Shown here in pieces: positions 1 through 59,448 of a stretch of 64,000 nt of DNA. The translations under genes and the position numbers were made by a program. The DNA comes from Macrostomum lignano (Eukaryota). The stretch lies in the NCBI GenBank assembly GCA_002269645.1, contig NIVC01000723.1, positions 290,729 through 354,728 of the forward strand. The letters run 5' to 3'. Position 1 is the first letter of the stretch, and each line of letters begins with the position of its first letter. The notes below the pieces were generated by a model that worked only from the letters and a program-made list of their open reading frames with translations, ran no database searches and was not told where the DNA came from.

Positions 1-315
1 TTAGACTAATCCTTAGACATATACCTAGACTTATTCTTAGACTTATACTTAGACTGATACTTAAAGACTTATACTCAGACCTATTCTAAGAAACATTTCT
101 CAGATTATTCTAATATTGATAAACTCATAATTTATTAATCGAATAATCTTGGTGGCAGCTACCAACCTAAGAAGAACACTTAAGAGATTAGTAAATTAGC
201 CCTGTGACAGCTTTTGGTGACAGTGTGAAATTATTATTAGAGACAGAAGTAACCCCTAGGACAACTTTGGTGGCAGCGGTGGGATTCTCAGTGTATAGGA
301 ATCACCACTGTTACA
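1..315 (+). repeat. 3' part of the 5' LTR
   Basis: Direct repeat of 5085-5399 (offset 5084), ends ...CTGTTACA, followed by a 3-nt spacer and the PBS. Confidence 0.93.
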
Positions 316-318
316 ACT

Positions 319-337
319 TGGTGGCAGCGGTGGGATT
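319..337 (+). promoter_or_regulatory. Primer-binding site, complementary to the 3' end of a tRNA-Leu including CCA
   Basis: TGGTGGCAGCGGTGGGATT, 3 nt after the LTR end; its reverse complement AATCCCACCGCTGCCACCA matches the eukaryotic tRNA-Leu 3' end as I recall it. Confidence 0.85.
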
Positions 338-453: not shown

Positions 454-1047
454 ATGGCTAATGCCAACGACGCAATTGCTAGGTTAGCTGAGGAGCTGTC
501 AAAGAAGCTAGGATTAGGAATGGAGAAGCAAGTAGAGATTGAGAAGTACACACCTGACAAAAATATCAGACAGTGGATCAATGCATTCGAGCAGCAATGC
601 AGGATGCAAGGACTGAATGGAGAAAAACGAAAAGTAGCTCTTTTCGCCAATCTGGATATCCCAGAAGAATTGAAGCGGAGGATGAGCCATAGACAAGACC
701 AGCAGCACTATCAAGACATTAGGCGACAAGTTATTGAGCAGTTCGAAAGGAAGCAGCAGAAGCAGGAGGAGAATGGAGTCCAAGCCCTAGTCGAGTGCTT
801 GATGACCCTAACGGCCATTCTGACAAATGTGAACTTAGGGCTAAACCCAAAGCAGCAGCAGCAGCAGTACAAATATCAGATGACGCCAAAGCCGCGCCCG
901 CCGCACAGATTCAGTGGCGCCAGACCAGAACCAAAGCCCGGCCACTGCTTTTTCTGTGGTCAGCCAGGATCAATCAGGCCACAGGCAGGTCATAAATGCA
1001 GAGTAAACTTGGGAGAAGCCAGACAGCGAGCTCAGGAGAATGGATAA
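454..1047 (+). CDS. gag: Gag-like protein (197 aa) with a degenerate zinc knuckle
   Basis: ATG ORF just after the PBS; capsid-like segment EKYTPDKNIRQWINAFEQQCRMQGL...KVALF; C-terminal CFFCGQPGS..GHKC (the knuckle His is replaced by Ser). Confidence 0.7.
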   Translation: MANANDAIARLAEELSKKLGLGMEKQVEIEKYTPDKNIRQWINAFEQQCRMQGLNGEKRKVALFANLDIPEELKRRMSHRQDQQHYQDIRRQVIEQFERKQQKQEENGVQALVECLMTLTAILTNVNLGLNPKQQQQQYKYQMTPKPRPPHRFSGARPEPKPGHCFFCGQPGSIRPQAGHKCRVNLGEARQRAQENG

Positions 1048-2449: not shown

Positions 2450-2683
2450 CTAGAGAATGAGATAGAACCAACCGAAGAAGAATTTGAGCATGAAGATGAG
2501 TCAACAGATAGTGAGAAGACTGAGCCAGCCGAAACAGATGACGCATTAGAATTAGATAGGAGAGAAAGAAATGAAGACGAAAGGATTGAGCATAGGTCGC
2601 ATTATAATTTGAGACCAAGAAGTGAGAGAATTGTCACCTCAGGATTCGCCCCCCGCAGGCGATACACCCATTATCTGAAATGA
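2450..2683 (+). pseudogene. Probable remnant of a pol/integrase C-terminal tail
   Basis: ATG-less open stretch LENEIEPTEEEFEHEDES...RSHYNLRPRSER...YLK*. An acidic tail plus a YNLRPR motif is typical of gypsy/BEL integrase ends; the same frame upstream has several stops. Confidence 0.4.
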
Positions 2684-2926
2684 TCGAATTTGTATCATAC
2701 CAAGTATTAAATTGTAAATAGAATTTGCTTAAAATCAGAAAAATTGCTCTGTATATAGAAATCTGTTGTAAATAATAAAAATTGACAAAATATAAAAAGT
2801 TTAAAAATATAAAAACACAAAAACATTGCGCATTACTAGTAGTAGAAATGAGAGAATTGTGTGAAGAAATCCGAAGTCAATAAATAATCCTAGCAACGCT
2901 TAGCAACGGTGCGCTGCTCTGAACCA

Positions 2927-3976
2927 ATGAGCGAGCCCGTTCGAAATTTGCTAAACCCCCTCTCGAGCGAACACGAAGATGCGGTCCAGTTTTTCGAATA
3001 CATTATGAAAACACGAGCCAACCCAAGGAATCATATTAGTTCTCACTGTAAGCTTAAAGATTACAAACCATCAAGTCTGACAAGCCCAGCCATGGAAGAC
3101 GAGAATATCGACGATTTCCTGAAGGCTCTGCTCGACGAAGAGGTGCCGATCTCAACGCCGCCGCCGCAGGAAGCTTCAGCGGCCGCAGCTTCGTCAGCAC
3201 CAACAACAGCCTCGTCAGCCGCCTCGTCGTCGGCAACCTCATCAGCGCCAACATCAGCAGCCCCGCCAGCAGCCCCCGAGGACGAAGCACCGCTCCGACA
3301 GCCGACTCGGCCCCGCGCTCTTGGCAGTTCGAACAAGCGGCCTCGAGAACCGTCGCCTGTCGCTTCAAATGCTCTGCAGTTACGCGTCGATGAGCCCCCG
3401 CATCAAAAGCGCGCCGCTGTCATCAGGGCTCAAGCAGCAGCACCCGTACAGCAGTACATGCCGCAGAACTGCCGAGCAGCCGCCGCAAGCCAGGAGAGGC
3501 GCACCGTGCAGCTGCCGACACCATCGACGGTACCGAAGCGAACGGCTCGTGGTCCACGACTGAGTGCAGCACCGGCAGCCCCGGCACCAGCTCCGGCAGG
3601 ATCGACAGTTGCCCAAGAACATCTCGAAAACACTCTGCGAGAGGCGATGCACGCTGTTCTGCGTCAGCATGGCGAGCAACTCGAGAAAATCGCCCACGCA
3701 ATCCGCCAGTATCTCATGCGGATTGGCCGTCTTCGATTAGATCAGGCCTTGCCGCAGAGGTCTCAGGTTTGGACAGCGATCAGGGCTCTGCGAGACCGTC
3801 TCGAGCAACGGCAGGCTGTCACGGTACTGCAGTACATCGCCCTCGGCCTCCGCCGTGCCATGCCTCCAAGTGACGAGACTGTCCAACATCAGCTGCTCGC
3901 AGTTGAAATGCGCTGGCTGTTTGCCCAACTCGGCTGGCCATACTACCGAGAACTGCCTGACCCATGCAATTTTTAA
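2927..3976 (+). CDS. Accessory ORF of unknown function in the env position of the LTR element (about 349 aa from the first ATG)
   Basis: GC/CpG-rich intact ORF inside an AT-rich element; acidic N-terminal MEDENIDDFLKALLDEE, Ala/Ser/Pro linker, basic KRPREP, helical-looking C-terminal domain; no obvious TM segment. Confidence 0.7.
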   Translation: MSEPVRNLLNPLSSEHEDAVQFFEYIMKTRANPRNHISSHCKLKDYKPSSLTSPAMEDENIDDFLKALLDEEVPISTPPPQEASAAAASSAPTTASSAASSSATSSAPTSAAPPAAPEDEAPLRQPTRPRALGSSNKRPREPSPVASNALQLRVDEPPHQKRAAVIRAQAAAPVQQYMPQNCRAAAASQERRTVQLPTPSTVPKRTARGPRLSAAPAAPAPAPAGSTVAQEHLENTLREAMHAVLRQHGEQLEKIAHAIRQYLMRIGRLRLDQALPQRSQVWTAIRALRDRLEQRQAVTVLQYIALGLRRAMPPSDETVQHQLLAVEMRWLFAQLGWPYYRELPDPCNF

Positions 3977-4388
3977 GTATGCTTTCTTTTTAACTTTTTC
4001 TACTTTTACTACCTGTTTGCTATGCAGCTTTTAGTTTTATATCTTGCTTGTTTGCATTAGTCTAATAATTTTTCTGATAGCTTCATTTTTATATAGTTTT
4101 ACATTATGTAAATATTCATTGCCTACATATGCTATATTCTCAATGTTTGCCTTATAACTAAGCAGCCTTTGTTTGCCTGTATGCTTGTGTTTTTCTAATT
4201 GTGCTCTATTAATTGCATTTTTGACTATTTTTCTAAAAAGTTTGTCTGTTTTATTTTTATCTTGTGCTACATTTATAGTTTTATATTGCATACGCTAATT
4301 TCTTGTATTTGTTTCTATGCTGTTGTGTTCTACATGCTAAATAAATTTTCACTCAAATATTCAATATTTTTATTCAAATTTATTTTTT

Positions 4389-4401
4389 AAGGGTGAGCAG
4401 G
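4389..4401 (+). promoter_or_regulatory. Putative polypurine tract
   Basis: T-run then AAGGGTGAGCAGG immediately before TGTGCAAG. Confidence 0.5.
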
Positions 4402-4402
4402 T

Positions 4403-5399
4403 TGTGCAAGCGCTTAATGCTACTAATAGTAATAATAATAGTTTTTGTAAATAAATTTGTCAATAATAATTTCGAGTTTTACCACTCAAGAATAGTATTC
4501 ACATATTATTTGTTTTAATCTTCTAACGTTTAATAATAATATTCATGTAAAAATTGTATGTATTTTTAAACCGAAAACTAATTTTAGCCCTATTTGTTTT
4601 AATACTGCATATATCAAAATTAATATTGATCAAGTCTCAAAATAGTATAAATAGACGGGATCTGGCCAGAGAGCCACCAACTGGCTGATTGCTTGTTCCT
4701 AAATTAGTCTCAAGTCTCGCTACTTGTTGAGCCTTAAACTGTTACTTAGAAATCTTTTCAAGACTTAGTAAATTTTTCGATTCAAAGAGTGAAGTGGAAG
4801 TTAATCATATCACAGATACTACTGATACTCAGAATACCAAGGAGATTGAAGTAAAACAAAGTAGATCTCGGGAATACATATACAGTATTGAGAAGGCCGT
4901 GACCCTCTAATCTCGGGAACGCCTAAACGACTGGACTAGACGATCAGACACTTAAATAACTACAAAAGAATTACAAGGAAGATCATTCTGAGAAATACAT
5001 TCCAGGCCAATAGTAGACCACTCGGCATATACTAAGAACGCTACCAATACATATACTAAGAACGCTACCAATAGAAGTAGATACTTAGACTAATCCTTAG
5101 ACATATACCTAGACTTATTCTTAGACTTATACTTAGACTGATACTTAAAGACTTATACTCAGACCTATTCTAAGAAACATTTCTCAGATTATTCTAATAT
5201 TGATAAACTCATAATTTATTAATCGAATAATCTTGGTGGCAGCTACCAACCTAAGAAGAACACTTAAGAGATTAGTAAATTAGCCCTGTGACAGCTTTTG
5301 GTGACAGTGTGAAATTATTATTAGAGACAGAAGTAACCCCTAGGACAACTTTGGTGGCAGCGGTGGGATTCTCAGTGTATAGGAATCACCACTGTTACA
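4403..5399 (+). repeat. 3' LTR (about 1 kb, TGT...ACA)
   Basis: Right end fixed by identity to 1-315; left end inferred from the PPT and TGT start; TATAAATA at 4646-4653. Confidence 0.75.
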
Positions 5400-7200
5400 C
5401 TAAAAATAAACTACTTTCTACTACATATACATGTATTACTTTTTGCTTAAGCAGTAAATTGAAAGTAAAAAAGTAAGTGTTGATCATACTAGGCCTAAAC
5501 TTTGTTTTTCTGAATTATGATTTTGGAAAATTTTAATTTTGATTTTAGAAAGTTAGCAAATTTTGATTTCGACAAAACTGCAGATCTTTCGGAACATCTC
5601 TAATAATCCTAAAGCGCGGTAAAATAGTTTGACAAGCGTGCGTCTGCAGGTTTTTAACATTTATTCTAATAGTGACTTGTATCTTAACATTTTAAAATTT
5701 TTTACTGTTGAAAATTTGTTCGATCAACTCTCGATAAAAAAACTGCACCAGATTGTTACTGTAAAAGTTGGTGAAAAACAAAAAAGTAAAATGTGGTACA
5801 ACTGGCAAGTTGAATTCTCGCAAAGTAATTATTGGACAATAAAGTTTAATAAATTTACTTATTAAAATATGTATCACGTAAGTTAAAGTTAAAGTGCATC
5901 CAATGGCACCCAGTTGATGAAAATTCCACATTTCTCATTGGTAGTTGATGAAGATTCAATTTTTCCTATTGGCAGTTGACAAACATTCCAACTACCAATT
6001 AATTTTTGTCAACTCTCAGTTAACAAAAAAAAGTTGACAGAAATACTAGGATCCATATAGAATTTTATAAATGGGATTGGGAGAGCACTATATCTAGGCA
6101 ATATATAAATGCCCTTGCCCTTAGCTCAAAAGGCTATATAACTTATACTTAAACTAAATAGATAGAAGTAGATATCAATATAACAAAAAAAATTACTTTA
6201 GCAAACAAAATAAAGCTTATTTTCTTAAATTAAGCTTGTGCAGTTGTAGTTTAGCCATACCAAACCCTTAAAAAACATTAGCATGCTTTTTGGACTAAAA
6301 AAATAAAAAATCTTAAGATGCAATTTAGCAAATTAGGTTCAATAGACATATTTATGAAGACTGAATCCTAAATTGTCAATACTACCAAGGTGAGATCTCA
6401 ATATTATAGGATAAGGAACATTGATGATTTTTCTCAATATACAGCCAGCTAAGTATAATTGGGCAACTATTATCATTTCATTCATTCCATTTAAATCAAT
6501 AATATGCTACCCAATAAAAAAGATCAATGTTTTTTTGGCAATTTTTCTATAGCTCAAATAAGCCAAGTAGGCTCCAATTGAGTATATTGCTCTAGTCAAT
6601 GCTAGAAGCCCAAAAAATATAATACTAGGACTTAAATCCCTATCTAGGACTTAAATCCCTATCTAGTCCTTATAGTAAAAAGTTGTAAAACCATGGACAA
6701 TGTCTGGTGCACTTTTAAAATTTTTCTGAAGTGTAGTGCCTGCATAGGCACGCAGCGCCTACACGCATGCTACCCTTTCCTGCTGGGTGCTGCTCTAGCT
6801 AATACCTAATACCTTTGTGGAAAGGGCCTATACACTCGTAATTTCTCGTATAATGCTTAGATGTTCCAAAATTTGGAATTTTTAAGTGAATTTTAAATTT
6901 TGAAAAAAATTGGAAGTCAAAATTTTGGAAGTTTGTAAAAGAGTAGCTAAAAATAAACTAATTTATGCTATATATACATGTATTTTGTTTTGCATAGGCA
7001 GTAAATCTAGAGTAAAAAAGTTAGTTTTGGTCATACTAAACTTTGTTTTCCTGAATTTTGATTTTGAAAAATTTTAATTATGATTTTGGAAAGTTAGCAA
7101 ATTTTGAATTCAACAGAAAATAATCCTAAAGTGTGGTAAAATAATTTGACTCTTTTTCTAAAGTGCGCATCCCTGAGTTTTCAACATTTATTCCAATAGG
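5400..7200. repeat. Two diverged copies of an AT-rich ~300-bp repeat (about 5400-5690 and 6947-7200)
   Basis: Shared blocks CTAAAAATAAACTA, TATACATGTATT, GAAAGTTAGCAAATTTTGA, TAATCCTAAAG(C/T)G(C/T)GGTAAAATA. Confidence 0.7.
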
Positions 7201-57400: not shown

Positions 57401-58081
57401 AGGCCTCCTTACGAGTACAAGAGCATGTCGGCTTTCACACTTTCTCTCAGACCAGCTACCATAGCAGGTACTCAAGTGTGCCAATTGTGCACCAACATGC
57501 TGATAAATGCATTGAGAAACAGGAGCCAGAGCGGAACCGACTCAATAGGGGGAATTTTTCGGCACAAAAGAAGCCGCCGCAACGAAAATGATAAAAGCAG
57601 AGAGGGATTCGGGAAGAGAGCAAAATAGGATGGGAAAACTGGGGAGGGGGGATTCAAGAGTGTTGCTGCCTATCTGGAAGGCAAGCGACCTTCCTGTTCG
57701 CAAGTGGCTGCACTGGGGAAGTGAGAGGCTACAGAGAGGCAGTTGTGTGTGGGTTGAGTTTGTGACACTGCAGCGGGGCCGGTCACGGTCAGTGGGTGTC
57801 CGTGGCTTCCCTGCGGGGTGGGAGGTTGAGGCGAGGTTCAACAGCCTCTCGATGCGTGGTAACTCATTATTTGGGTCGGCCATTAGCTGGAGTGTGACGG
57901 GGGGCTGCCACCAGCCACTGCTCCCAGTGCAGTCCTGCTTGATTGACTTTTCCAGCATCAGCGCGACGAGATGAAGGAGCTGCTGGGGCTGGGCAGGAGG
58001 GCGATGCAGCTCTGAAGAGGCTGGGGTCCCGGTCAGGTGGGCGTGCGAATAACCAGCGATTCTTAAAGTTGCCCCCTCTGA

Positions 58082-58733
<652 letters not shown>

Positions 58734-59448
58734 TTTACATTCCAAGCAAGAATCAATGTCAGAAAAACAGTTCTATTTAATAGTTAACGATAATTTCAAG
58801 TAGGAACTACGAGTAGCTACCAATTTCCAACAAGAAAAAGCTTTTACTTATATTTTGTTGCAGCAGATTAGAACAGCATCGCAGAATTGGGATAGATAAC
58901 TAACAAACGCCCTTGGCTTGGCCCCATCAAACTGAGAAAATGAGAATCTCTCCTGGACCAGGTGGGGGCCGGAGGCTGAGTGTACCTGTGTGCACAATGC
59001 ATGTCGCAGAAATTTCATCAAGCAACAGGGAACACGGCAGCAGGACAACACAAACAGGTCGCGGTAGAAACAGAATGAAAAGCGAATTCCGGTGCCCCCC
59101 CGTTCGATAATCAGTTTATCACAAAGCAGTTTTATCAATTTGTTGAGATAATTAAACACACGAATAAATCGATCGAATAAACAGAAATATATAGAAACAG
59201 ACTAGCGACAGTGGAGCATTTTAGTCAAATATGCAGCGCATTGAACCCCTGCCCAGTGCAAGCCGAAGCATCCGAGTATGGTAACGCAAAGAAGAAACTT
59301 TACAGATTGAAATTTAATAAAAAGAAGATTCGAGCTTTCGGGAATTGGGGGGGGGGGAGAGCAGAAAGGCGGGACAATTCAGTTCAGTGAGTAATACTTC
59401 GACTGTTGTCAGTTGTGAATTGGGTTTAGGAGGCCGAACCCCGCGCAG

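What the first reader, a model, noticed from the sequence alone, without database searches (positions are those of the whole stretch)
150..337. LTR U5 is built from serial [LTR-end + PBS] units with unique spacers
Seen: PBS-like motifs at 150 (TGGTGGCAGC), 215 (TGGTGACAG), 268 (full TGGTGGCAGCGGTGGGATTC) and 319 (the PBS just outside the LTR), spaced 65, 53 and 51 bp. The last three are each preceded by an LTR-terminus-like word (CTGTGACAGCTT, CTAGGACAACTT, CTGTTACAACT) and separated by unrelated spacers. The same units recur in the 3' LTR (about 5234, 5299, 5352). Inference: the LTR grew by PBS walking, where priming at a new downstream PBS moved the old PBS and leader into U5, leaving a record that degrades toward the 5' end. 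Alternatively, the extra copies act as decoys for 3' tRNA fragments, which are known to repress LTR elements at the PBS.
Basis: partly seen in the sequence, partly recalled or inferred. Interest (0 to 1): 0.7.

Follow-up and report, generated by a model that had tools for sequence, protein, structure and literature searches.

The report
Retrotransposon ends are shuffled primer arrays
A group of jumping genes in a flatworm ends its terminal repeats in a variable, reshuffled stack of two to eight short modules, each an old primer-site copy plus a repeat end, which are likely gained and lost when the copying enzyme lands out of register, so the stack would be a written record of copying slips.

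Summary
The window holds a young non-autonomous Ty3/Gypsy element (identical 997-bp LTRs, 4-bp TSD), probably from Macrostomum lignano. Its LTR ends in three modules of [tRNA-Leu PBS copy + spacer + LTR end]. Relatives carry 2-8 modules: 111 distinct arrays, about 22 spacer classes, 63 class orders, in at least five families. Spacers are reused, not unique, and do not match leaders. Module heads look tRNA-copied: perfect 18-mers sit mostly in the last module (13 of 109 against 3 of 226), one head is the exact complement of a different tRNA-Leu, and 29 of 34 working PBSs are bulged. Three TSD-confirmed elements have unequal arrays at their two ends, in both directions. One of them has an LTR 99.7% identical to the window's, with module 3 on its 5' side only. 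Best explanation (0.7): out-of-register strand transfer between PBS copies, then priming at the downstream PBS. Ten literature searches found no description. The scan noted a similar arrangement in another genome (unchecked).

The parts
1..315 (+). 3' part of the 5' LTR (997 bp in all; it starts 682 bases before the window)
150..209 (+). Module 1: 10-nt PBS-like head able to form a small hairpin, no LTR end before it, spacer, LTR-end word; linker 210-214
215..263 (+). Module 2: degenerate PBS head, spacer, LTR-end word; true LTR end of 2-module relatives; linker 264-267
268..315 (+). Module 3: perfect 18-nt tRNA-Leu PBS copy, spacer reused in other arrays, present LTR end; linker 316-318
319..336 (+). 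Working PBS, perfect 18-nt complement of tRNA-Leu(AAG/TAG); closest relatives have the bulged family form here
454..1047 (+). Short gag-related ORF (45% to the helper's Gag over 104 aa)
2501..2680 (+). Remnant of the pol 3' end (95% over 60 aa); no RT in the element
2894..3976 (+). ORF3, 360 aa stop to stop, Ala/Pro-rich, no Pfam match
4388..4402 (+). Polypurine tract and linker before the 3' LTR
4403..5399 (+). 3' LTR with the same three modules at 5234, 5299 and 5352
5400..5403 (+). Target-site duplication CTAA (matches the 4 bases before the 5' LTR)

Best explanation
The LTR of this Gypsy clade ends in a variable array of [PBS copy + U5 end] modules, which is likely built and trimmed during reverse transcription by strand transfers that land on the wrong PBS copy. 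Shown: variable arrays with true integration ends, reuse and reordering of spacers, bulged working PBSs, perfect tRNA complements at recent junctions, and elements with unequal ends. Inferred steps: (1) The plus strand copies up to 18 nt of the tRNA primer, which fits the bulged working PBS only over 11-12 nt, so inner heads compete as landing sites. (2) Gain: the minus strand reads on past the PBS into the array of a co-packaged RNA and the plus strand lands on an inner head, leaving extra modules on the 5' side only, headed by the tRNA copy or the donor's head. (3) Priming at the downstream PBS in the next cycle puts them into both LTRs. (4) Loss: an inner head on the plus strand pairs with the working PBS, or priming occurs at a fresh inner head. 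(5) Heads that still prime are likely lost, so decayed heads accumulate inward. I take the array to be mainly a self-sustaining by-product of a bulged PBS that is itself under selection.
For: Arrays: 111 distinct arrays from 123 loci, about 22 spacer classes; 63 class orders; 59 adjacent class pairs, with 10 pairs seen in both orders. Ends: 4-bp TSDs flank LTRs ending after 2, 3 or 4 modules. Unequal ends: 4 of 29 elements with both ends visible, 3 TSD-confirmed: C391 (5' +1, perfect head), C428b/L165 (5' +1, degenerate head), C759/L171 (3' +1). The window's LTR is 99.7-99.8% like C391's and its interior 99.8-99.9% like C428's, whose LTR is 87% alike, so it is a recombinant of two templates. 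tRNA copying: perfect 18-mers in 13 of 109 terminal against 3 of 226 inner modules; distinct strings 8 of 78 against 3 of 124, p=0.024. Four spacer cores occur with both perfect and degenerate heads, and matches to the tRNA stop at 18-20 nt. L197's last head is the exact 18-nt complement of tRNA-Leu(CAG) and two others are one change away; none of the 4 such sites precedes a known leader. Working PBS: 29 of 34 bulged; nt 1-11 match 99% in 14 distinct working heads against 81% in 119 inner heads. A perfect-PBS copy (L175) has the same RT as a bulged one (L172). Precedent: PBS pairing in second-strand transfer (PMC6088434), reversion by tRNA copying (PMC7472051), multiple PBSs in HIV-1 mutants (PMC1084362).
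Against: No cDNA intermediates, strong-stop ends or RNA ends were seen, and the R/U5 border is unknown. Only 3 confirmed unequal elements; conversion between genomic copies could also make them. For C391, internal priming on a long RNA gives the same product. A fourth unequal element (L159) failed the TSD check. The terminal enrichment rests on about 8 against 3 independent lineages, and L111-L150 were picked for an intact 11-nt seed. The model does not explain the constant module length (47-55 nt, 10th-90th percentile), how heads decay so fast beside near-identical spacers, or where new spacers come from. Perfect working PBSs are 11 of 46, well under the half expected from simple 50:50 inheritance. 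The assembly is redundant (PMC12801592), so counts are inflated.
Confidence: 0.7

Rival explanations
1. PBS walking with leader capture: a new PBS arises downstream in the leader, priming moves there, and the old PBS plus leader become U5.
For: C391 and the window fit the final step. Heads decay inward. Classes 2, 6 and 13 have short 10-11-nt heads like the family PBS.
Against: Spacers do not match 31 leaders. Each spacer already ends in an LTR-end word. Spacers recur in both orders and across families. One element has the longer array at its 3' end.
Confidence: 0.07
2. An ordinary tandem repeat that diversifies in the chromosome by slippage, unequal crossing-over and gene conversion between LTRs.
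For: Some spacer classes are related (11 of 231 pairs at p<=0.01, about 2 expected). Mosaic modules exist. One exact adjacent duplicate (C112).
Against: It cannot easily write perfect tRNA complements, including the CCA complement and a second tRNA, at junctions. Exact duplicates occur in only one element. Unequal elements include LTRs that are 99.7-100% alike elsewhere.
Confidence: 0.1
3. The modules are kept by selection for a function: decoys for 3' tRNA fragments, or hairpins that keep the working PBS open.
For: 3'-tRFs target PBSs, and mismatched PBSs dominate in mouse ERVs (PMC7472051). Module 3 folds well on itself (z -3.5) and can alternatively pair with the working PBS (z -2.4). The site-150 motif is conserved in a sister clade (188 pattern matches).
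Against: Inner heads are predicted to bind the tRNA end more weakly than working PBSs. Module 2 does not fold (z +1.4). Family-wide head-tail pairing is slight (-8.8 against -8.4; class representatives 78 of 1000 permutations). The sister clade has no multi-module array.
Confidence: 0.12
4. Assembly artefact or chance resemblance.
For: The assembly is redundant; no single public contig spans the whole stretch.
Against: Shuffles, TSDs, 63 trunk matches with 0 control matches, and contigs of 4 runs from 4 studies cover the array and show other junctions.
Confidence: 0.01

Closest known systems
Ty3/Gypsy LTR retrotransposons of Macrostomum lignano (PMC12801592)
   Same: Same superfamily and probable host. 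Helper copy has Gag with CCHC and PR-RT-RH-IN; RT 92% to a M. lignano protein.
   Different: The main text has no occurrence of PBS, primer binding, tRNA or tandem. Clade and family id were not assigned here.
HIV-1 laboratory mutants with multiple PBSs (PMC1084362, passages)
   Same: Extra PBSs appear when PBS and tRNA primer do not match.
   Different: Transient culture products of engineered viruses. The passages read describe no LTR-end module per PBS and no clade-wide exchange.
Mismatched PBSs of mouse ETn, MusD and IAP (PMC7472051, passages)
   Same: The commonest PBS is imperfect, and perfect ones reappear, proposed to be by tRNA copying.
   Different: One PBS with about two point mismatches. 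Here there is a 3-4-nt bulge and a stack of copies inside the LTR.
Two-part PBS of Drosophila gypsy and yeast Ty3 (PMC1635307, passages)
   Same: More than one tRNA-binding site per element; 11-nt working PBS.
   Different: Their second site binds another part of the tRNA near the RNA 3' end. Here all heads copy the tRNA 3' end and lie in series at the LTR end.
CRISPR arrays (analogy, recalled)
   Same: Repeat-spacer layout with the newest unit at one end.
   Different: No cas genes, spacers are the elements' own LTR ends, repeats decay, and no guide function is suggested.

Membership tests
Ty3/Gypsy LTR retrotransposon | Paired LTRs with TG...CA ends and a short TSD | tested here: met
   997-bp LTRs, TSD CTAA
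Ty3/Gypsy LTR retrotransposon | PBS complementary to a host tRNA 3' end; PPT before the 3' LTR | tested here: met
Ty3/Gypsy LTR retrotransposon | pol order PR-RT-RH-IN with Ty3-like RT | tested here: met
   Met in the helper copy C391; the window copy lacks RT and is non-autonomous
Named Gypsy clade (Mag, CsRN1, Gmr1/Osvaldo, Mdg3) | RT grouping with reference members | not tested
   No reference RTs were in the tree
Bipartite PBS (Ty3, Drosophila gypsy) | Second site complementary to a different part of the tRNA | tested here: not met
   All module heads align to the same 3' 18 nt; other tRNA-binding sites elsewhere in the element were not searched for
Self-primed Tf1/sushi type (recalled) | PBS complementary to the element's own LTR rather than to a tRNA | tested here: not met
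   PBS is an exact tRNA-Leu complement
LTRs carrying a tRNA-derived gene (Helenus/Ajax type, recalled) | tRNA-like gene segment within the LTR | tested here: not met
   ARAGORN finds 0 genes in the window; the copies are short and in PBS sense
tRF decoy or sponge | Binding of 3'-tRFs that relieves repression | not testable with these tools
   Only predicted duplex energies

The most novel reading that the evidence does not exclude
The array is a selected module-exchange system. Inner heads catch the tRNA-copied plus-strand end, so the silencing-evading bulged PBS is passed on unconverted, while families and their non-autonomous passengers swap integrase-facing LTR ends. The stack records, in order, which partners were co-packaged and which tRNA primed each gain. 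A similar layout noted in another genome would make this a recurring retroelement strategy.
Probability: 0.2. Interest if true: 0.88.

Novelty: new variant of a known kind. Interest (0 to 1): 0.72.

Why it matters
The LTR end next to the PBS is normally treated as fixed. Here it is a natural array that grows, shrinks and mixes between families, with about one in ten visible insertions (3-4 of 29) caught with unequal ends. This gives a genomic read-out of second-strand-transfer fidelity, of co-packaging between families and of occasional priming by a second tRNA. It also makes the priming-versus-silencing trade-off at the PBS testable in a tractable animal, because perfect PBSs keep reappearing while bulged ones prevail. 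In practice, consensus-based annotation hides such arrays, and LTR boundaries or ages can be misread in these families.

Tried and rejected
Leader origin of spacers: not supported. Module heads as PBSs of many other tRNAs: of five tRNA-like ends, only Leu(CAG) gave an exact or near match (3 heads, plus a weaker fourth, L212). The other 108 distinct heads tested were 4 or more changes from every alternative. General module hairpin: weak, and 1 of the window's modules 2 and 3 folds. Deaminase signature: G>A is 221 of 335 changes, but per site 22 against 13.5 for C>T, in related and non-independent heads of an A-rich element, so no claim is made. Control family primed by Leu(CAG): none found; 15 of the 18 hits were repeats or unrelated sequence. 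Expression: no RNA holder listed, and contigs cannot give RNA ends. Polarity from the 63 trunk loci: not used, because the pattern fixes modules 1-2. Among 55 arrays picked otherwise, 19 carried the module-1 head with 7 different terminal classes. TSDs were found for only 21 of 77 terminal arrays, a few of them probably chance; many are 3' LTRs or had too little upstream DNA. Dropped rows: 11 duplicates, 7 loci unparsed, 1 false parse; the parser misses some first modules and splits some arrays. In one search, 15 of 40 loci had no 3' copy within 10 kb and 3 were not assessable. Pfam on the window's two ORFs: nothing at cut-off. Look-ups of earlier findings by words and by sequence were empty.

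Full report
Verdict. The finding is real and is one case of a clade-wide feature: LTR ends made of a variable, reshuffled array of [PBS copy + U5 end] modules. The evidence points to reverse transcription as the source.

The element. The window begins inside the 5' LTR of a 6.1-kb element. The LTR starts 682 bases before the window and ends at 315; the 3' LTR is 4403-5399. The two are identical over 997 bases and flanked by a CTAA duplication. The interior has a short gag-related ORF, a remnant of the pol end and a 360-aa ORF3, but no RT. A relative on contig C391 has full Gag and PR-RT-RH-IN frames, with Ty3 as best solved relative. Its RT is 92% identical to a Macrostomum lignano protein and 64% to a second one; the other top-ranked hits are under 50%, so the host is probably that flatworm. 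The PBS at 319-336 is the exact complement of 12 host gene ends, 4 of 4 checked being tRNA-Leu AAG or TAG.

Observation. Sites and spacings are as reported and exceed chance. Site 215 is significant only together with its LTR-end word. The window's three spacers are unrelated to each other.

Relatives. A search with the array gave 49 matches, many ending exactly at module borders. A pattern over the module 1-2 junction gave 63 sites, an LTR-end-plus-PBS pattern 127, and a module-3-type spacer pattern 61, about half outside the first set. From 123 loci I parsed 112 distinct arrays, 111 after dropping a false parse, in about 22 spacer classes with median module length 49. In the window's family arrays run from 2 to 8 modules. 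There are 63 class orders, 10 class pairs occur in both orders, and only one element has an exact adjacent duplicate. At least five leader types carry arrays. Of these, the four sampled in the tree group together, with RTs 83-97% identical to C391's. TSDs show that the variable ends are true integration ends. Contigs from four public runs cover the array and show other junctions.

The heads look copied from tRNA. Working PBSs, defined by the leader that follows, match the tRNA over nt 1-11 (99%) and then mostly bulge: 29 of 34, or 35 of 46 with the later loci. Inner heads show the reverse pattern: 81% over nt 1-11, but over 90% at nt 12-13, where working PBSs have 50%. So most heads do not look like duplicates of the genomic PBS. 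Perfect 18-mers are mostly terminal (13 of 109 against 3 of 226; distinct strings 8 of 78 against 3 of 124, p=0.024), and mismatches rise inward. The same spacer can carry a perfect head in one array and a decayed head in another, and matches to the tRNA gene end at 18-20 nt. This fits the known stop of plus-strand copying at a modified base (recalled). One terminal head is the exact complement of a different tRNA, Leu(CAG), three changes from the usual PBS. Two more are one change from it, and none precedes a known leader. Perfect working PBSs appear in five leader types, once beside a bulged copy with identical RT.

Elements caught mid-step. Of 29 elements with both ends visible, 25 are symmetric (two of these probably one insertion) and 4 are not. 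C391 has one extra module on the 5' side, with a perfect head and the bulged PBS behind it (TSD AATA). C428b has one extra 5' module with a decayed head (TSD CATG). C759 has one extra module in the 3' LTR (TSD GGTT). C221 failed the TSD check. The window element and C269 have C391's LTR (99.7-99.8%) with module 3 in both LTRs, and the interior of the non-autonomous C428 (99.8-99.9%), whose LTR is only 87% alike. They are most simply read as recombinants of co-packaged RNAs primed at the downstream PBS of a C391-type template.

Mechanism (inferred). Second-strand transfer pairs the tRNA-copied plus-strand end with the minus-strand PBS (PMC6088434, passages). With a bulged PBS and several inner look-alikes, that pairing can be out of register. 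Landing on an inner head of a read-through minus strand adds modules at the 5' end, which downstream priming then fixes in both LTRs. Pairing of an inner plus-strand head with the working PBS removes modules. Decayed heads persist because they no longer prime. Confidence 0.7. No intermediate was observed, and constant module length, fast head decay and the origin of new spacers are unexplained.

Site 150 and origin. The sister clade (64% RT identity) also uses a short bulged Leu PBS. It has one inner PBS-like motif about 100-210 bases upstream in 12 of 14 loci fetched, but no multi-module array. A pattern for it has 188 matches, many in pairs about 8 kb apart. It resembles site 150, and both can close a small hairpin, though not beyond shuffles. 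Site 150 is thus an old conserved motif and a plausible seed for the array, not simply the most decayed module.

Rivals. Leader capture, chromosomal tandem-repeat evolution, decoy or hairpin function and artefact are weighed in their own sections. The bulged PBS itself may be selected against tRF silencing, as argued for mouse ERVs (PMC7472051, passages); that was not tested here.

Literature. Ten searches: searches gave 0 papers; some searches gave listings in which I saw no such array. I read PMC12801592 (first of six parts, term search, supplement 1 of 5; the other four were not read and may bear on family identity), and passages of PMC1084362, PMC6088434, PMC7472051 and PMC1635307. The library lacks most subscription journals and older retrovirology, and repeat databases were not searchable, so absence is provisional.

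Scores. New variant of a known kind; interest 0.72.

Noticed in passing
window:2894-3976: Ala/Pro-rich ORF3 with no Pfam match; the 339 aa open in the autonomous C391 copy read the same as here, in the env position.
   Followed up: partly
L221:1330-1350 and 187 other matches: A sister Gypsy clade keeps one PBS-like, hairpin-capable motif in both LTRs, about 100-210 bases before its bulged Leu PBS.
   Followed up: partly
L035, L036 (G000:C1833:109000-125000): Chain of three internal regions sharing four LTRs, period about 4.6 kb; C1098 (L149) shows a similar tandem at 8.6 kb.
   Followed up: no
window:4400-4402 and 316-318: The linkers outside the two LTR ends are near reverse complements across families, suggesting a 3-nt processed overhang; each module keeps this linker.
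   Followed up: no
window:1-100 and 5030-5185: Short tandem repeats inside the LTR upstream of the array, including a repeated word that resembles the 3' half of site 150.
   Followed up: no
window:17000-26000 and 58070-58740: Long GATA-type microsatellite tracts, the last in inverted orientation.
   Followed up: no
L169 (G000:C617): The 3' LTR is interrupted inside a module by other sequence beginning TGT, perhaps a nested insertion.
   Followed up: no
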